From IMG/VR virus record IMGVR_UViG_2778261154_000008: DNA of 25,084 nucleotides, one strand, 5' to 3'. Shown piece after piece: positions 1,457 through 24,915 of this stretch; the first letter of the stretch is position 1, and every line of letters begins with the position of its first letter. Below the pieces are notes generated by a model that was given only the letters and a program-made list of their open reading frames with translations, did no database searches and was not told the origin of the DNA. The position numbers and the translations under genes are program-made. This DNA is from a virus (taxonomy: Duplodnaviria; Heunggongvirae; Uroviricota; Caudoviricetes).

Positions 1457-2517
1457 GTCACCTCCCCGATGGTGATAAGCTCATCCACATCACTGGTGGT
1501 GTCCTCCCCGATGTTAAGGAAGTAATCCGTGATGCCGGACGTCATACCGATGGCCGTGCGCAGCGAGGACACCGGCAGCGTCTGACCGGGTGCCAGTGTC
1601 TTCTGTAACGCGGTCAGGTTTGCCCGGACGGCGCTCCTGTTCGCCAGGCTGTCCGGTGTCAGACGGATGGATATGCTGACTTTCTTCAGCCTGACCTGTA
1701 CCGGCCAGACCTCAATGCCGCCCGGTTTGCCCACCATCACGCCCGTGGCCGGGTGTTTGTGGCAGAACAGATACTGCTCCATTGTCTTCAGGTCTTCGCG
1801 GGTTGGCACGATGTTTTCCCGGTCATCATAAAGCCATGCCAGCCCGACCGTGCCGGGGCCGTGCCATGCATCCCACGCCCACGCGCGGCTGACGCCCGGC
1901 ACTTCACGCGCCCATATCACGTAGTCATGCAACGCGCCGCCTGTCGGTGGATTGCGGCGCACATACAGCAGACGGTCCAGCAGCGCTGCGATGGATTCAG
2001 TGTCTGCGCCACCGGTGATGCCACCTTCAGCCACCGCGCCTGTGCTGGCCGTTCCGGGCAGCGGGGACAGCAGGGTGAGTACGGCACCGGCAGCAAGATT
2101 GCCCGCCACACCGGCTTCTTCAGCCTGCACGATGACGGTGACCTCGCCGTCCTGCACCTCGCCGGACGTGAGTACCTGATACACCTGGTTCGTGTCGGAC
2201 TGCATCCGGGTTTCTGCCGGAAGGGGGGACTGACTGGTGAAGGTCACCCGCCCGCTGGCAAAGGTGGCCTGCTTGCGGATAACCCCTTCATACTTTGCTG
2301 TTTTGATAATGGTTTCATCATCAGACGTGGTGGACGGGATTATCTGGTCCTTAATCCAGCTCTGATGGTCGTATAAATCCCGGACCTGACTGCTGAATGA
2401 CACGTTCAGCGCCTGCTCAACACTGACAGGCGGCAGCTTTTGCAGGCCGAGTTCATACGCAATATCTTTTTCGCCGTCGGCAATCAGTTTGCCCAGCGTG
2501 GGGATTTCATACGGCAT
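1441..2517 (-). CDS. Baseplate J-like protein (Mu gp47)
   Basis: 358-aa ORF overlapping its upstream neighbour; size and position in the baseplate module. Confidence 0.75.
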   Translation of the reverse strand: MPYEIPTLGKLIADGEKDIAYELGLQKLPPVSVEQALNVSFSSQVRDLYDHQSWIKDQIIPSTTSDDETIIKTAKYEGVIRKQATFASGRVTFTSQSPLPAETRMQSDTNQVYQVLTSGEVQDGEVTVIVQAEEAGVAGNLAAGAVLTLLSPLPGTASTGAVAEGGITGGADTESIAALLDRLLYVRRNPPTGGALHDYVIWAREVPGVSRAWAWDAWHGPGTVGLAWLYDDRENIVPTREDLKTMEQYLFCHKHPATGVMVGKPGGIEVWPVQVRLKKVSISIRLTPDSLANRSAVRANLTALQKTLAPGQTLPVSSLRTAIGMTSGITDYFLNIGEDTTSDVDELITIGEVTWLTA

Positions 2518-7816: not shown

Positions 7817-8102
7817 GGTCTGCCGGGTGGAGCATTCGCAGCTGTTTCATGTCCAGCGGGCCGGGGATATTACCGATTGACGCAACCTGACGGCGCATCA
7901 TCTCCAGTCCCATCAGCACCTCAGAACAGTAGGCCACCGCCTTTCCGTTCCCGCCCATGACGACGCGTTCTGCGGCCAGTTGCGCATCAATCACATCACT
8001 GGCGGTCAGTTCGCGCAGTTTCACGGTTTTATGCAGGGTTTCATCTGCCGTGCCTTTGCCGGTCAGAAGCCCGTGTTTCAGTTCAAATTCCATTGCGGCC
8101 AT
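7707..8102 (-). CDS. Tail assembly chaperone (Mu gp41-like)
   Basis: 131-aa acidic ORF between tube and tape measure genes; its 3' end is overlapped by a second open frame (7607-7816). Confidence 0.55.
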   Translation of the reverse strand: MAAMEFELKHGLLTGKGTADETLHKTVKLRELTASDVIDAQLAAERVVMGGNGKAVAYCSEVLMGLEMMRRQVASIGNIPGPLDMKQLRMLHPADLELISTKAAVLDDMLEEVATRGRTDAAGVGTDEPAG

Positions 8103-8103
8103 G

Positions 8104-8460
8104 TCACACCTTCACGCATTTTTCACCGATAAAGTTGGCACTGATGGTGCCGGAATCCTCGTCCAGCTCTGCCGGGTTATCCGTGGCGGAACCCGTCATC
8201 ATGTAGTTCAGGCCGTTGTCGCCGTAGAACATCACCGTGACATCTTCCCAGCTGCTGATTTCAATCACGTCCATATCCGCTGCCGCCGCAATGGTTACCT
8301 TGATGGACGGCGAGGCCATCTTGCTGGAGATACCCCAGACCTTGCCGCCGCCCATATGCTGGGTGCGGCTGAAGCCGCCCGGATTCAGCGTGGATTTCCC
8401 CTCGGTTTTAATTTCGCGGCCATTCACGCGAATGGTCGCCATACCAAGAATTTTTGCCAT
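8104..8460 (-). CDS. Tail tube protein (Mu M-like)
   Basis: 118-aa ORF immediately downstream of the sheath gene. Confidence 0.75.
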   Translation of the reverse strand: MAKILGMATIRVNGREIKTEGKSTLNPGGFSRTQHMGGGKVWGISSKMASPSIKVTIAAAADMDVIEISSWEDVTVMFYGDNGLNYMMTGSATDNPAELDEDSGTISANFIGEKCVKV

Positions 8461-21068: not shown

Positions 21069-21656
21069 TCATCCCCGCGTGACGGACGACACGTTGTCGA
21101 TAATTTCCAGACAGGCGTCGGTCACTTTCTCCATGCGGTTAAACCAGCCGTTCAGGTATTTGCCCTGGGCAGGTTTGGATTTGATGATGTCGGCATAAAA
21201 GCGGGAACGACGGACAATGCAGCGGGTCAGCAACCAGTCCGGGGTGGACAGGCTCACTGCCTTACGGGTACGCGGACCGATGATGCCGTCAGCATCCACA
21301 TCAGCGGCTTCCTGCAAAATCCTGATAGCTTTTTTAACGCCATGCTGAACCGCCGCATCGAACACAAACATCGCCACGCCATCAGGCCACTGGTCACATC
21401 CGGCAGGCAGCCAGTAATCGCGCCAGTAAATCTGCGCGACCTGTTCGCGGGTTAAATCCCTGATGCGGGTATCCGGTTTACCGTCGCCGCTGACATCGGT
21501 TTTGCCGTCAATCACACCGTCGCGGCGGTCAGAAATGCCGTATCTGGTTTCGCCGCCACGGTCAGTGGGGTCATTGACATAGACGCCTTCGATATCGGGA
21601 CGCAGAATAAAATTCAGCGCATACTCAAAGGCCGGGGAGAATTTTTGATTTTCCAT
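21069..21656 (-). CDS. Endolysin, GH108-type muramidase with C-terminal peptidoglycan-binding domain
   Basis: 195-aa ORF; N-terminal FEYALNF...EGVYVNDPTDRGGETRYGIS matches the GH108 signature as I recall it; C-terminal DGIIGPRTRKAV resembles a PG-binding domain. No N-terminal hydrophobic/SAR segment. AGGTG RBS. Confidence 0.8.
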   Translation of the reverse strand: MENQKFSPAFEYALNFILRPDIEGVYVNDPTDRGGETRYGISDRRDGVIDGKTDVSGDGKPDTRIRDLTREQVAQIYWRDYWLPAGCDQWPDGVAMFVFDAAVQHGVKKAIRILQEAADVDADGIIGPRTRKAVSLSTPDWLLTRCIVRRSRFYADIIKSKPAQGKYLNGWFNRMEKVTDACLEIIDNVSSVTRG

Positions 21657-21741: not shown

Positions 21742-22191
21742 TTAAGGACGTCGTGGCGGACGACGAACGGGGTGAGGCAGGTTCGGGGAGTGGTAAAACA
21801 AATCCGGCTGGTATTTATTACACTCCAGACGCCGCATCCGCTTGATGGCCTTGTAGACGGTTTTATACGTCACCCCGTAACGCTGAACCAGTTCAGGAAT
21901 ATTATGGCCGTTAAAATCACGCCAGATACGCATATCCCGGACAAGATTCTCCAGAATATTCCCCCTCGGAACATAAACCTGCATCCCGCCGATATAGCGA
22001 CAAATCGCCACAACCAGCTCAAGGGAATGGGCAGGGTCTGCGCCAATCCGGGCCAGCTCTTTACGCAGCAGTGCGTTCAGTTCAGAAAGTAACGCCGGAT
22101 AAGCCGTGTTTTCCTGGTAATCGTTAAGGTATTCCAGAACGCTGTCGTCCCGGAAGTCTTCGAATAAATCCTGCTCTTTCATCTGTTTCAT
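21742..22191 (-). CDS. Mor/C-family transcriptional activator of middle/late genes
   Basis: 149-aa ORF; the segment DPAHSLELVVAICRYIGGMQVYVPRG...YGVTYKTVYKAIKRMRR closely resembles the Mu Mor/C family as I recall it; ATGA overlap with gemA; sits directly upstream of the lysis operon. Confidence 0.75.
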   Translation of the reverse strand: MKQMKEQDLFEDFRDDSVLEYLNDYQENTAYPALLSELNALLRKELARIGADPAHSLELVVAICRYIGGMQVYVPRGNILENLVRDMRIWRDFNGHNIPELVQRYGVTYKTVYKAIKRMRRLECNKYQPDLFYHSPNLPHPVRRPPRRP

Positions 22192-22739
22192 ACAGCAATT
22201 CTCCCGCTGTTTCGTGCGCGGGCATATGCACTGGTCAGTGCATCATAGCCGCGCAGCTTCCGCCCGGTTTCGCTCACAGGTAAAGGCACACCATGTCGGG
22301 CAAAGGCTTCCCGGATGCAGCGCATATGCCACTGTTTGAGCGTTTCGAGCACAACATGCAACGATTCCCCGTGACACCAGGCCAGCGTGGAAACACCCTG
22401 ACCGCCATTACGTCTGACCGTCAGGCGTTCAACGTATTTGTCCAGCGCAGCGTCGCTGATATCGGAGACGAAACCATCAAGGAACATCTGCTGCCAGATT
22501 TTATAAATCTTCTCGCGCGGTGTGACATGCCCCTTAAAGCGACGGCGGGGATGTTTTTTCTGCTTCTTAAAACCGCGCTCTTTCATGGCATCGAGCACAC
22601 GTTCCAGTTGTGCAACGGACAGCTCGCGGCAACTGGTTTTGCCCGTGTGCTGCACCAGAAAGGCGCGGTAAGTGTCATCGTCGAGTTGTAGATCACGACG
22701 GGCGACATGAATTAATTTAATCAGGGATGTGCGATTCAT
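22188..22739 (-). CDS. gemA: GemA-like regulatory protein (Mu gp16, DUF1018-type)
   Basis: Start taken at ATG 22739 (MNRTSLIKLIHVARRDLQLDDDTYRAF...) with GGAGG 8 nt upstream, rather than the longer listed form from 22793. Confidence 0.7.
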   Translation of the reverse strand: MNRTSLIKLIHVARRDLQLDDDTYRAFLVQHTGKTSCRELSVAQLERVLDAMKERGFKKQKKHPRRRFKGHVTPREKIYKIWQQMFLDGFVSDISDAALDKYVERLTVRRNGGQGVSTLAWCHGESLHVVLETLKQWHMRCIREAFARHGVPLPVSETGRKLRGYDALTSAYARARNSGRIAV

Positions 22740-22760
22740 TATCGTACCTCCAGAAAAGGG

Positions 22761-22780
22761 GGCGGTGCGGCAACACCGCC
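22761..22780 (-). promoter_or_regulatory. GC-rich hairpin upstream of the gemA RBS (possible attenuator between the accessory cassette and gemA)
   Basis: ggcggtg-cggcaa-caccgcc; on the minus strand it is followed by CCCUUUUCU and then GGAGG...AUG of gemA. It also lies ~30 nt upstream of the plus-strand ORF's ATG. Confidence 0.3.
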
Positions 22781-22812
22781 AGAATCCACTCACTAAACAG
22801 AGGAAACTTTTT

Positions 22813-23079
22813 ATGAAAAACAGTGAACAGCCTTATGATGTTGCAGGGTATGTCATTGCCTCAAGGTTGCTGATACTCCTTGTCAGAAAGGGGCTAATTA
22901 CCGCAGAAGAAGGCAAAACGATCCTCGAAGCCGCAGCAAGCGGAGCGGCAGAGGCTCCGGCATTGAGAACAACGAATAATCCCATCCTGCAAATATCACA
23001 GCTAATCACTGATACCATCAGTTTGTTAGACCAAGATTCTGATGAATATCAAAAGCCTCAGCCATCTGAGCATCCGTAA
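22813..23079 (+). CDS. Hypothetical 88-aa protein on the opposite strand to the phage operons (candidate moron or antisense-regulated gene)
   Basis: ATG 22813 preceded by AGAGGAAA. Lies in an otherwise non-coding 278-bp minus-strand gap in lower-GC DNA (hand count ~44%). Overlaps the 3' end of the convergent minus gene by 62 bp. One hydrophobic stretch (YVIASRLLILLV). Confidence 0.4.
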   Translation: MKNSEQPYDVAGYVIASRLLILLVRKGLITAEEGKTILEAAASGAAEAPALRTTNNPILQISQLITDTISLLDQDSDEYQKPQPSEHP

Positions 23080-23365
23080 GAATATCTTTATTTGATAGTC
23101 CCAGCCTGCGACGAATGTATTCCTCGCGGGCTGCTTCATTTTGTAGCGCCACGGCAGCTTCCACCTGGTTCATTTCACGGTTGATAATGCTCCGGACTTC
23201 TCTGGCGGTGAGGTCATGCTCAATACCATATTTAACAATATCATGCATACGTTCCAGCATCCTTAAATTAGCCATGACGTCATCAATATTAACTGGTGTG
23301 AATTTCATTTCTTTATTCTCTGGTTTATTCATTTCGTAATACCTCTTCGCAATAAAAGATTTCAT
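23018..23365 (-). CDS. Hypothetical 115-aa protein, lower-GC accessory gene
   Basis: ATG 23365 overlaps the stop of the upstream small ORF (ATGA); largely helical-looking; hand-counted GC ~43% over 23101-23340. Confidence 0.5.
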   Translation of the reverse strand: MKSFIAKRYYEMNKPENKEMKFTPVNIDDVMANLRMLERMHDIVKYGIEHDLTAREVRSIINREMNQVEAAVALQNEAAREEYIRRRLGLSNKDILTDAQMAEAFDIHQNLGLTN

Positions 23366-23508
23366 TGGGATAACGTTTTTGTATGCGCTCCATCACCTGC
23401 ATACATGTCTGCTCTGTGGGCCAGATTTTTTTCCGTTACCGGAATGGCATCGCAGGCATCATTTCCGCAGGTGCCAACCAGCAGGACAAAGCCAGTTGAC
23501 TTAATCAT
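23362..23508 (-). CDS. Hypothetical small Cys-containing protein (48 aa)
   Basis: Start taken at the internal ATG 23508 (MIKSTGFVLLVGTCGNDACD...) with AGGAAA upstream; stop overlaps the next start. The longer listed form would overlap the upstream gene by ~100 nt. Confidence 0.3.
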   Translation of the reverse strand: MIKSTGFVLLVGTCGNDACDAIPVTEKNLAHRADMYAGDGAHTKTLSQ

Positions 23509-24040
23509 GCTCGCTGATTTCCTGTGTTTCCGCCGGAACCGGTGAATAATCAAGAATGAGATAGCGCAGGACGTGGTCGGTGATATTCCAGCCACTGGAG
23601 CCACAAATAAAACGACCCAGCCGGATATCGATATAAGCCATCACAAAACGGGGCATTCCCTGTTTACACATCTCGTCATCCACTTCAGCAACGATGTAAA
23701 CCGACTCGCAGGTCAGTACGCCTGTCGCAAATTCTTTTGCCAGTGCCGGAATGGCATTGCCTTCCAGCCAGGGCAAAGAGCGGCGGAACGTGCACCATTG
23801 CGCACCATCAACATCGGGGTGCTCCGTTGAATTTCGCCCGGCAGGCGGCTCTGCCCGGGAGCGCGGAACGTCGTAAAAGCCGTTCAGTTCAGTCAGCACT
23901 CCGGCATCAACCGCATCACGCAGGAAATACACCATTGCAGAGACCGGCATCCTCATTTTGTCCGCCAGAACACCACAGGTCAGACGTCCGTAAGCCCGTA
24001 ATAATGTGCTGACACCGTTCAGAACTTTTGCATCAATCAC
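23501..24040 (-). CDS. Hypothetical 179-aa protein, early/accessory region
   Basis: GTG start at 24040 with GGAGG 7 nt upstream, 3 nt after the upstream stop; no family recognised. Confidence 0.5.
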   Translation of the reverse strand: MIDAKVLNGVSTLLRAYGRLTCGVLADKMRMPVSAMVYFLRDAVDAGVLTELNGFYDVPRSRAEPPAGRNSTEHPDVDGAQWCTFRRSLPWLEGNAIPALAKEFATGVLTCESVYIVAEVDDEMCKQGMPRFVMAYIDIRLGRFICGSSGWNITDHVLRYLILDYSPVPAETQEISEHD

Positions 24041-24043
24041 CGG

Positions 24044-24548
24044 TTATTCCTCCGTCAGTGCCACAAATTCAGAATGTTTAATGCGCTGGCATTCGGCAGG
24101 AACCGGTCCCTTAACCTCACCATCCAGCAGGCACACCTCAAACAAAATGCCGAATCCGTCACGGCTGTGGTGCATCGTCCAGACTGATTTGAGATCAAAC
24201 ATGTTGGGTACAACATCAACCCCGAGTTCATTACACAACCAGACCGGGAATGTGGGATATTTCCGGAGTTGCTCTTCATGTTCCTGAATAAGCGTCGCAT
24301 TGTTTCGGCCTTCCGGTGTTGTTATATCCGGTACAACGCCATAAAACTGAAATCCACCAATAAACAGTCCGTCTGATTTACCACGCCATAATTCCGGCGC
24401 TAATTGATTCATCCAGATACATTCAACCCGTTCATACCCTCTGTTACTGACAAGGGAAACACCGTCTGCGCCAAACGCACGCTGCAATGAGCAGATGATT
24501 TTGTCACGCTTAACAGAAACATCTTTCAGCCAGCGAATCGTATAACCG
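24044..24548 (-). pseudogene. Hypothetical early-region gene, probably 5'-truncated by the IS insertion
   Basis: The listed ORF runs to a GTG at 24574, but its first nine codons lie inside the IS3-family left end (which starts at 24549), so the native N-terminus appears to be missing. An internal Met at ~24412 could still give a shorter product. Confidence 0.45.
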
Positions 24549-24580
24549 TGAGGTAGCCTGAGTTTAACGGACACTCCTTC
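24549..24580. repeat. Left terminal inverted repeat of the IS3-family element (approximate extent)
   Basis: Begins with TG at 24549; the right end is outside the window, so the IR length cannot be confirmed. Confidence 0.45.
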
Positions 24581-24612: not shown

Positions 24613-24915
24613 ATGAGCAGAAAAACCCAACGTTACTCTAAAGAGTTCAAAGCCGAAGCTGTCAGAACGGTTCTTGAAAATCAACTTTCGATCAGTGAAG
24701 GCGCTTCCCGATTATCCCTTCCTGAAGGCACTTTAGGACAATGGGTTACCGCCGCCAGAAAAGGGCTCGGTACTCCTGGTTCCCGCACGGTGGCTGAACT
24801 GGAATCTGAAATTCTGCAACTGCGTAAGGCGTTAAATGAAGCTCGCCTTGAGCGAGATATATTAAAAAAAGCAACAGCGTATTTTGCACAGGAGTCGCTG
24901 AAAAATACGCGTTAA
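24613..24915 (+). CDS. IS3-family transposase OrfA (HTH / leucine-zipper subunit)
   Basis: 100-aa ORF MSRKTQRYSKEFKAEAVRTVLENQLSISEGASRLSLPEGTLGQWV... with a helix-turn-helix and a C-terminal heptad region typical of IS3 OrfA. Confidence 0.9.
   Translation: MSRKTQRYSKEFKAEAVRTVLENQLSISEGASRLSLPEGTLGQWVTAARKGLGTPGSRTVAELESEILQLRKALNEARLERDILKKATAYFAQESLKNTR
24864..24871 (+). promoter_or_regulatory. Candidate -1 programmed frameshift site of the IS (A7-G slippery run)
   Basis: AAAAAAAG sits in the orfA/orfB overlap (orfA codons TTA AAA AAA GCA); IS3-family elements classically shift on A6G-type motifs. Confidence 0.55.

What the first reader, a model, noticed from the sequence alone, without database searches (positions are those of the whole stretch)
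22813..23079. Convergent, overlapping gene pair: a plus-strand ORF facing the minus-strand operon
Every other phage gene in the window is on the minus strand. An 88-codon plus-strand frame with a plausible RBS fills a 278-bp stretch that is non-coding on the minus strand, and its last ~20 codons overlap the 3' end of the 115-aa minus gene (23018-23079). Transcription of either gene would be antisense to the other's 3' end, an arrangement seen in morons and antisense-regulated toxin/immunity pairs. In DNA of ~44% GC a chance open frame of this length is unlikely.
Basis: partly seen in the sequence, partly recalled or inferred. Interest (0 to 1): 0.6.

Follow-up and report, generated by a model that had tools for sequence, protein, structure and literature searches.

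The report
Reverse-strand small gene in Mu-like prophage
The backwards-facing 88-codon frame is a real, conserved small protein gene of phage Mu and its relatives, with its own ribosome-binding site and terminator and always paired tail-to-tail with Mu gene 14; the reference Mu genome annotates the wrong strand here, and the protein's function is unknown.

Summary
The ORF is at 22813-23079 (+), as described. It lies in the early region of an E. coli Mu-like prophage, between GemA and a gp14/E15-like gene.

ORF length alone proves nothing, because the window holds about 20 longer plus-strand shadow ORFs. Three other lines show it is a real gene:
1. Substitutions between this prophage and phage Mu preserve the plus-frame protein (z = +4 to +4.5). 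They do not preserve the 61-codon minus frame that Mu annotates as Mu_54 (z = 0.1-0.8).
2. Variants with no alignable DNA (D108, an Stx-phage insert and others) encode a homologous protein in the same place and orientation.
3. An intrinsic terminator for the plus transcript sits inside the gp14 coding sequence. It is kept in 13 of 13 variants and is stronger on the plus strand.

The gene is convergent with a gp14 homologue in 28 of 29 loci found through gp14. One natural deletion allele, found in plaque-forming Yersinia phages and one viral contig, removes it.

No promoter was found, no known family or fold matched, and no expression data exist. My best reading is a moron-like unit expressed when the early operon is silent. 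A toxin/immunity pair is not supported. RefSeq and PHROGs already list the ORF as hypothetical, so interest is modest.

The parts
22813..23079 (+). Small protein gene (88 aa), a member of phrog_8747, annotated in RefSeq as hypothetical protein WP_072035588.1. The AF2 model has three helices (residues 8-25, 31-47, 57-74).
   Evidence: ORF. PHROG match E = 7e-26. RefSeq, SfMu and Tongde annotations. Plus-frame selection z = +4.0 to +4.5 against about 0 for the minus frame. Homologues in DNA-unrelated variants. AF2 model.
22800..22805 (+). Shine-Dalgarno sequence GAGGAA, about 9 nt upstream of the ATG.
   Evidence: Read from the sequence. A GGAG or AAGGA element 7-10 nt before the ATG is present in all 12 sequence variants despite divergent spacers.
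23103..23143 (+). Intrinsic terminator of the small gene. The hairpin is at 23103-23132 and the T-rich tract GCTTCATTTTG at 23133-23143. It starts 24 nt after the stop codon and lies inside the gp14-like coding sequence, antisense to its AREEYIRRRLG codons.
   Evidence: Hairpin plus T-tract found in every variant examined (13 of 13). It is more stable on the plus strand (mean -17.6 against -13.0 kcal/mol, 13 of 13). It is more stable than synonymous recodings of gp14 (mean z = -3.4). 95.4% of cells are paired, with 2 compensatory pairs and 17 G.U cells.
23021..23332 (-). gp14/E15-like gene (phrog_6075; 104 aa from Met12; the ORF extends to 23365 and its stop codon is 23018-23020). It is the invariable convergent partner, and its 3' end is overlapped by the small gene.
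   Evidence: partner homologous in all 14 loci, 13 sequence variants, E <= 1e-8 against the window protein; 28 of 29 gp14-ascertained loci carry the small gene.
22751..22780 (-). GC-rich hairpin GGCGGTG-N6-CACCGCC (22761-22780) followed on the minus strand by CCCTTTTCTG. It is terminator-like for operon-strand transcripts that have crossed the small gene in antisense. It lies between the small gene's start and the GemA SD and marks the mosaic boundary.
   Evidence: Terminator scan. Present in 12 of 12 variants, three of them with unrelated stem sequences, and mostly more stable on the minus strand. D108 similarity to the window ends at 22781.
22833..23018 (-). 61-codon shadow ORF, the positional counterpart of Mu_54 (which I take to be the old gp15) in the reference Mu annotation. 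It is not a gene.
   Evidence: Protein similarity to Mu is at the random-substitution expectation (z = 0.09-0.83). NG86 omega is 0.63 against 0.35 for the plus frame. The start and stop positions are not conserved. No PHROG match. No equivalent ORF in the D108 or Stx-phage-insert variants.
22188..22739 (-). GemA (gp16 family). It is divergent from the small gene, with the two start codons 73 bp apart.
   Evidence: Pfam PF06252, E = 5e-33. RefSeq annotation.

Best explanation
The plus-strand ORF is a real gene for a small (about 9.7 kDa, my estimate), soluble, three-helix protein. With gene 14 (E15) it forms a two-gene convergent cassette in the semi-essential early region of Mu-like phages.

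Shown:
1. The protein is under purifying selection, and it is conserved in sequence, position and orientation across variants that share no alignable DNA.
2. It has a conserved SD.
3. It has its own intrinsic terminator, embedded antisense in the gp14 coding sequence.
4. A second hairpin, terminator-like on the operon strand, lies just beyond the small gene's 5' end.
5. The gene is dispensable for plaque formation.

Inferred:
1. The two transcription units overlap over the whole small gene. A transcript from the early promoter Pe is therefore antisense to the entire small-gene mRNA.
2. The gene would then be expressed when Pe is repressed (lysogeny).
3. On induction, convergent early transcription would shut it off through RNA polymerase collision and sense/antisense RNA pairing.
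4. The product most likely acts by binding another protein. gp14 is the prime suspect because of the strict pairing; a host or superinfecting-phage target is the alternative.

The confidence of 0.6 is for the whole statement. My separate estimates are about 0.9 that it is a real protein-coding gene, about 0.7 that it is an autonomous unit with its own terminator, and about 0.45 that expression is specific to lysogeny.
For: Coding and conservation:
- Plus-frame selection z = +4.0 to +4.5 (P <= 1e-4) against 0.1-0.8 for the minus frame. NG86 omega is 0.35 against 0.63.
- All 88-codon ORFs are intact and ungapped in six distinct Mu-type sequences.
- Cross-variant protein homology: window against the Stx-phage insert E = 2e-8, D108 against the Stx-phage insert E = 3e-7.
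- A profile search of 1.84 billion representative proteins gave 32 hits at E <= 0.001, nearly all 60-119 aa (three longer, multi-stretch hits were not examined), with a protein-like conservation pattern.

Synteny and orientation:
- Identical arrangement in every Mu-like locus examined.
- Every partner is a gp14 homologue.
- 28 of 29 gp14-ascertained viral loci carry the small gene.

Transcription signals and other traits:
- Terminator evidence.
- Operon-strand hairpin.
- Natural deletion allele in the plaque-forming phages vB_YpM_3 and vB_YpM_23 and in L062.
- GC of 42-47% across the cassette against 51-58% in the flanks.
- The adjacent gem operon is reported to be constitutively expressed in lysogens (Paolozzi & Ghelardini 1992, as cited in PMC3820752). 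So this neighbourhood is not silent in the prophage.
Against: - No convincing sigma-70 promoter was found on the plus strand. The recurrent weak candidate, with its -35 in the hairpin loop, would start transcription inside the SD.
- No transcript, ribosome-profiling or proteomic data were found.
- No family, defence-system or fold match gives a function.
- The AF2 model is only moderately confident (pLDDT 68.7).
- Expression in lysogeny is inferred from geometry alone.
- Pairing with gp14 could reflect linkage rather than function.
- Some assemblies carry frameshifted or 5'-disrupted copies.
- The codon-usage test is nearly neutral (+3.8 bits), because the cassette's base composition differs from the training genes.
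Confidence: 0.6

Rival explanations
1. Regulatory element of the lytic programme. The small gene, or merely its convergent transcription, modulates read-through of the early transcript into gemA-mor. It would work together with the operon-strand hairpin just upstream of gemA and so time the early-to-middle switch. The protein would be secondary, or a regulator of gp14 or the gem products.
For: The gene sits exactly between the body of the early operon and gemA-mor and is bracketed by two hairpin terminators. The Mu record annotates a 'semi-early promoter' (8151-8217) overlapping the small gene's start. At Pm, Mu also overlaps an annotated terminator with a promoter.
Against: Protein-level selection shows that the product itself matters. 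In L044 and L050 the cassette is not adjacent to gemA. Mu-like prophages of other genera, and several E. coli variants, have gemA-mor without the cassette. The deletion allele is viable.
Confidence: 0.15
2. Toxin/antitoxin-like or immunity pair with gp14. One product or RNA would neutralise the other, and the 3' antisense overlap would provide the control.
For: The convergent pairing with gp14 homologues is strict, and the two genes are swapped together as a unit. The 3' overlap is conserved although its length varies from 4 to 98 nt.
Against: No match to PADLOC, Pfam or NCBIfam toxin, antitoxin or defence models. The small protein is not hydrophobic enough over a transmembrane length to resemble a type I toxin; this is my own reading of the sequence. 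gp14 without the small gene is tolerated in plaque-forming phages. An overlap as short as 4 nt (L047, L052) argues against a mechanism that depends on the 3' overlap.
Confidence: 0.1
3. The plus frame is a shadow ORF. The real gene would be the operon-strand 61-codon ORF (22833-23018), homologous in position to Mu_54 and translationally coupled to gp14 through TGATG.
For: The reference Mu record annotates Mu_54 on that strand. The TGATG stop/start overlap is visible in the window. Both frames are open in Mu and in the window.
Against: Minus-frame protein similarity is at the random expectation, while the plus frame is 4 SD above it. The start codon shifts and the stop moves by 5 codons between Mu and the window. 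There is no PHROG match. No comparable minus ORF exists in the D108 or Stx-phage-insert variants, whereas the plus protein is conserved there.
Confidence: 0.03

Closest known systems
Morons of temperate phages: autonomous accessory transcription units inserted between genes of a phage operon (my knowledge of the lambdoid literature; general concept in PMC7067206)
   Same: A small accessory gene with its own SD and terminator. Its base composition is atypical (46% against 56% GC). It is absent from some otherwise collinear phages and dispensable for lytic growth. Its orientation would permit expression while the surrounding operon is repressed.
   Different: No promoter was identified. The absence allele is a deletion, not an empty site. 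The gene is tied to one particular neighbour (gp14), and its terminator lies inside that neighbour's coding sequence. Expression in lysogens was not tested.
Overlapping genes olg1/olg2 and gene 10 of the Pseudomonas transposable phage Fc02 (PMC9936078)
   Same: A Mu-like (transposable) phage in which small genes on the strand opposite to the early lytic operon overlap an early gene. In Fc02 they are transcribed in the lysogen and give superinfection exclusion.
   Different: The Fc02 genes lie next to the repressor/ner switch, not upstream of gemA. No sequence similarity was tested or claimed. Exclusion activity is unknown here.
Phage Mu Mu_54 (which I take to be the old gp15) and the old putative ORF 'F-134' of record M64097
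   Same: The same 280-bp interval of the Mu genome. F-134 (1991 record) is the same strand and frame as the gene described here, with an earlier start.
   Different: The current Mu reference records annotate only the operon-strand 55-aa ORF, which shows no sign of selection.
Mu gem operon (gemA-mor) as a lysogenic-conversion unit (Paolozzi & Ghelardini 1992, cited in PMC3820752)
   Same: It is the immediate neighbour and is reported to be expressed constitutively from the prophage. Its annotated promoter region overlaps the small gene's 5' end.
   Different: It is on the opposite strand, and its proteins are unrelated.

Membership tests
PHROG phrog_8747 (unknown function) | Significant full-length match to the family HMM | tested here: met
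   E = 7.1e-26, residues 1-86 on profile positions 1-86 of 88. A second, more distant match to phrog_32893 has E = 4.5e-8.
Moron (autonomous accessory unit in a prophage) | Own transcription terminator | tested here: met
   Hairpin plus T-tract starting 24 nt after the stop codon. It is conserved in 13 of 13 variants, favours the plus strand, and is more stable than synonymous recodings.
Moron (autonomous accessory unit in a prophage) | Own promoter | tested here: inconclusive
   The consensus scan finds no plus-strand promoter. The weight-matrix scan gives only weak, inconsistently placed candidates.
Moron (autonomous accessory unit in a prophage) | Present or absent between genes that are adjacent in related phages, with atypical composition | tested here: met
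   vB_YpM_3, vB_YpM_23 and L062 lack it, leaving gp14 next to gemA, although this arose by deletion at a TGAT repeat. GC is 46% against 56% for the window.
Moron (autonomous accessory unit in a prophage) | Expressed from the repressed prophage | not testable with these tools
   This needs strand-specific RNA-seq or a reporter in a lysogen. No published data were found.
Type I toxin-antitoxin | Small hydrophobic, membrane-spanning toxin peptide | tested here: not met
   The longest hydrophobic stretch is about 15 residues and contains an Arg (sequence). AF2 gives a soluble-looking three-helix model. No TA or defence model matched.
Type II toxin-antitoxin | Co-directional two-gene operon with recognisable toxin and antitoxin domains | tested here: not met
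   The genes are convergent, not co-directional. No Pfam, NCBIfam or PADLOC match was found for either protein.
SHOCT-like domain (PF22746) | Score at or above the Pfam gathering threshold | tested here: not met
   17.5 bits against a cut-off of 27, covering 18 residues only.
Mu_54 (operon-strand ORF of the Mu reference) | Same strand and reading frame, with a conserved protein | tested here: not met
   It is on the opposite strand. The window's counterpart of Mu_54 (22833-23018, minus) shows no protein-level conservation.

The most novel reading that the evidence does not exclude
The small protein and gp14 form a previously unrecognised two-gene convergent switch in phage Mu itself. Mutually antisense transcripts with interleaved terminators would make expression of the small protein and of the early operon mutually exclusive. 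The small protein would then act in the lysogen, for example by holding gp14 or gem functions in check or by excluding other phages. That would add a second lysogeny-expressed gene on the repressor's strand to a model phage in which, to my knowledge, only the repressor c is recognised there.
Probability: 0.15. Interest if true: 0.6.

Novelty: new member of a known kind. Interest (0 to 1): 0.4.

Why it matters
Phage Mu is a model system, yet its current reference annotation places a gene (Mu_54) on what the evidence here says is the wrong strand. It also omits an 88-aa protein that is conserved across Mu, SfMu, D108-type and other enterobacterial Mu-like phages.

Correcting this defines a compact gp14 plus small-gene cassette with nested terminators. 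That gives a concrete, testable candidate for a gene expressed from the Mu prophage. It also gives a first handle on the function of gene 14 and of part of the poorly understood semi-essential early region.

It is not a new kind of system. Several automated annotations and PHROGs already list the ORF as hypothetical.

Tried and rejected
- ORF length as evidence: rejected. The window has about 20 longer shadow ORFs.
- Codon periodicity: unusable, because the third positions of the two frames coincide (derived).
- Codon-usage log-odds trained on the window's genes: nearly neutral (+3.8 and -7.6 bits, against +30 and -37 for true genes and shadows). The cassette's GC differs from the training genes, and only 11 of them mapped intact.
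- Pfam, NCBIfam and PADLOC: no significant hit for the small protein, the D108 or Stx-phage-insert variants, or gp14.
- My guess that the unrelated L009 ORF was DUF2513: not confirmed.
- Foldseek against the PDB: nothing with E < 1.
- Rfam: only noise.
- Word-indexed protein search with the single sequence: only 2 clusters. The alignment search gave 19 and the exhaustive profile search 32.
- tblastn of phage records: Mu-type only.
- gemA-anchored loci from 17 other species (one a 273-bp fragment, not assessable): neither gene present.
- Promoter search by consensus and by weight matrix: inconclusive.
- Literature: PMID 9454718 (semi-early promoter) is not held. The SfMu and Yersinia-phage papers contain none of the search terms I tried for this ORF. 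No Mu strand-specific transcriptome was found.
- Three weak family members (P0038, P0041, P0043) lie in short non-Mu contigs. Their homology and context remain uncertain.

Full report
CONTEXT. The window is part of an E. coli Mu-like prophage lying on the minus strand. From low to high coordinates it holds tail and head genes, the endolysin (21069-21656), Mor (21742-22191), GemA (22188-22739), a gp14/E15-like gene (23018-23365) and further early genes. It ends with an IS3-family orfA at 24613 (+). The 1-kb stretch around the finding is 100% identical to prophages in E. coli FDAARGOS_943 and VL40, and 78% identical to phage Mu itself.

OBSERVATION.
- The ORF runs from the ATG at 22813 to the TAA ending at 23079 (88 codons). 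GAGGAA lies about 9 nt upstream of the ATG.
- Its last 62 nt overlap the 3' end of the gp14-like gene.
- RefSeq already annotates exactly this ORF (WP_072035588.1). In the VL40 prophage it is the only one of 39 features on that strand.
- SfMu (SfMu_16) and Yersinia phage Tongde annotate the equivalent ORF. It matches phrog_8747 at E = 7e-26.

1. The interval is not ORF-free on the minus strand. A 61-codon ORF (23018->22833) starts in a TGATG overlap with the gp14 stop codon. The current Mu reference annotates its counterpart as Mu_54.
2. Long plus-strand ORFs are common in this window as shadows of real genes, so ORF length is not evidence.
3. GC is 46% in the ORF and 56% in the window.

WHICH STRAND CODES? 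The third codon positions of the plus and minus frames coincide, so periodicity is uninformative. I used three other tests.

(a) Randomised substitutions. I kept the observed number of differences between the window and Mu (72 in the 185 nt that overlap no other gene). I also kept their distribution over codon positions and their transition/transversion classes, and placed them at random 20,000 times.
- The real plus-frame proteins are far more similar than expected: BLOSUM62 score 155 against 97 +/- 14, z = +4.0, P = 1e-4. In the reverse direction z = +4.5.
- The minus-frame proteins sit at the expectation: 88 against 87 +/- 15, z = 0.09.
- Nei-Gojobori omega is 0.35 for the plus frame and 0.63 for the minus frame. 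The minus frame's start and stop codons are not conserved.

(b) Divergent cassette variants. D108 and a Mu-like insert in an Stx1 phage share no alignable DNA with the window here. D108 similarity stops at 22781. Both nevertheless carry an opposite-strand ORF in the same slot (119 and 79 aa). It has a homologous N-terminal domain: window against the insert E = 2e-8, D108 against the insert E = 3e-7. No comparable operon-strand ORF exists in either.

(c) Family search. An exhaustive profile search of 1.84 billion representative proteins found 32 relatives at E <= 0.001, nearly all 60-119 aa; three longer, multi-stretch hits were not examined. The shared pattern is D-x-A-G-F-x-L-A-G-N-L-L-x-x-L-x-x-K-G-x-I-x-x-x-E-A-x-x-I-I plus a C-terminal helix, often W-H-L-D-N-L.

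Conclusion: the plus ORF is a gene. Mu has an unannotated 88-aa orthologue (complement of about 7896-8162), and Mu_54 is a shadow ORF. The 1991 record M64097 had listed this strand as putative 'F-134'.

ANATOMY OF THE UNIT.
- Orientation and partner. In every Mu-like locus examined the small gene is divergent from the preceding operon gene, usually gemA, with start codons 68-115 bp apart. It is also convergent with a gp14/E15 homologue and overlaps that gene's 3' end by 4-98 nt.
- Downstream terminator. Between 21 and 79 nt after the stop codon (24 nt in the window), on the small gene's sense strand, lies a 9-13-bp GC-rich hairpin followed by a T-rich tract (window 23103-23143). It is antisense to the conserved A-R-x4-R-R-x-L-G codons of gp14.
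  - It is present in 13 of 13 variants.
  - It is always more stable on the plus strand (mean -17.6 against -13.0 kcal/mol), because of G.U pairs that would be A.C mismatches on the other strand.
  - It is much more stable than synonymous recodings of the same gp14 peptide: mean z = -3.4, with P <= 0.006 in 11 of 12.
  - 95.4% of cells are paired, with two compensatory pairs.
  - I read it as the terminator of a plus-strand transcription unit.
- Upstream hairpin. A second hairpin (22761-22780) lies between the small gene's SD and the gemA SD. It is followed by a T-tract on the minus strand, so it is terminator-like for operon-strand transcripts. It occurs in 12 of 12 variants, three with unrelated stem sequences.
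- Consequence. An early-operon transcript would cross the whole small gene in antisense before meeting this hairpin.
- Promoter. No convincing plus-strand promoter was found. The Mu record places a 'semi-early' gem promoter (8151-8217) over the small gene's 5' end. I could not read the paper it cites.

DISTRIBUTION.
- Of 30 IMG/VR loci found with gp14 as the query, 29 can be assessed. Of these, 28 have the convergent small gene; two of the 28 carry a copy with a disrupted 5' end.
- The remaining locus (L062) carries the same TGAT-to-TGAT deletion as the plaque-forming Yersinia phages vB_YpM_3 and vB_YpM_23. The deletion removes the small gene's SD and codons 1-68 and leaves gp14 intact.
- Mu-like prophages ascertained through gemA in 17 other species (one a 273-bp fragment, not assessable), and several E. 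coli variants, have neither gp14 nor the small gene.
- One E. coli variant (STEC383) has an unrelated 131-aa reverse-oriented ORF in the same slot.
- The gp14 plus small-gene pair is therefore a mosaic cassette swapped as a unit. It has lower GC (42-47%) than its surroundings and is dispensable for lytic growth.

PROTEIN. AF2 with a shallow alignment predicts three helices (residues 8-25, 31-47, 57-74). The mean pLDDT is 68.7, with 84-88 over the first two helices and low-confidence ends. Foldseek against the PDB gave nothing with E < 1. Pfam, NCBIfam and PADLOC gave no significant match. The function is unknown.

MECHANISM (best-supported reading). The unit is autonomous and moron-like, and its mRNA is fully complementary to the early transcript. 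It can therefore accumulate only when Pe is repressed (lysogeny), and convergent early transcription would silence it on induction. The product is a small helical binding protein, with gp14 as the leading candidate partner.
- Shown: coding status, SD, terminator, operon-strand hairpin, conserved pairing and dispensability.
- Inferred: the promoter, the timing of expression, antisense silencing and the target.

Rivals, in order of weight:
1. A timing device for read-through into gemA-mor.
2. A toxin/immunity pair with gp14. This is weakened by the viable gp14-only phages, the lack of toxin-like features and overlaps as short as 4 nt.
3. A shadow ORF. This is rejected.

NOVELTY. The ORF is already in RefSeq, in some phage records and in PHROGs as 'hypothetical'. 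Four things are new here:
1. The demonstration that it, and not Mu_54, is the selected frame, including in the Mu reference genome.
2. The family's breadth.
3. The obligatory convergent pairing with gene 14.
4. The nested, strand-specific terminator.

This makes it a new member of a known kind (a reverse-oriented accessory gene in a prophage operon). It is useful to Mu specialists and for annotation, but not a new type of system.

Noticed in passing
window 24613-24915 (+), continuing to the window end: An IS3-family orfA (MSRKTQRYSKEFKAEAVRTV...) follows the gene at 24044-24574, the positional counterpart of a DUF5420 gene in near-identical prophages. In FDAARGOS_943 and VL40 the Gam gene comes next instead. 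This copy of the prophage therefore appears to be interrupted or truncated by an IS element.
   Followed up: partly
Phage Mu AF083977 / NC_000929, 7960-8127 (L001 2846-3013, minus in locus): The reference Mu gene Mu_54 (55 aa) looks like a shadow of an unannotated 88-aa gene on the complementary strand (about 7896-8162). The Mu annotation probably needs correcting.
   Followed up: yes
window 23362-23604 (-): RefSeq flags the gp13-like gene just upstream of gp14 as frameshifted in the identical FDAARGOS_943 and VL40 prophages.
   Followed up: no
L009 601-996 (+) (E. coli STEC383): A different, unrelated 131-aa reverse-oriented ORF occupies the same slot upstream of gemA and is convergent with a different operon gene. 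The slot may be a hot spot for backward-facing cargo. The ORF has no Pfam or PADLOC match.
   Followed up: partly
L045 1052-1387 (+) and L046 950-1378 (+): Other Mu-like prophages carry further reverse-oriented ORFs (111 and 142 aa) between gemA and mor. They have no known domains.
   Followed up: no
L044 about 2950-2990 and L050 about 1950-1995 (+): In two distant variants a second long hairpin lies just upstream of the small gene, and its 3' arm covers the SD (CCTGTTA...TAACAGG). This may be a translational control element.
   Followed up: no
window 22781 (right edge of hairpin 22761-22780): DNA similarity to D108-type phages ends exactly at the edge of the intergenic hairpin, so the hairpin marks a mosaic recombination boundary between gemA and the variable cassette.
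   Followed up: partly
window 22750-23500: GC falls to 42-47% across the small gene, gp14 and the gp13-like genes, against 51-58% in the flanking prophage DNA.
   Followed up: partly
P0014-P0019 and L071/L072: Several database copies of the Stx-phage-insert-type small gene have frameshifted C-termini or a disrupted 5' end. This could be decay in some prophages or assembly error.
   Followed up: no
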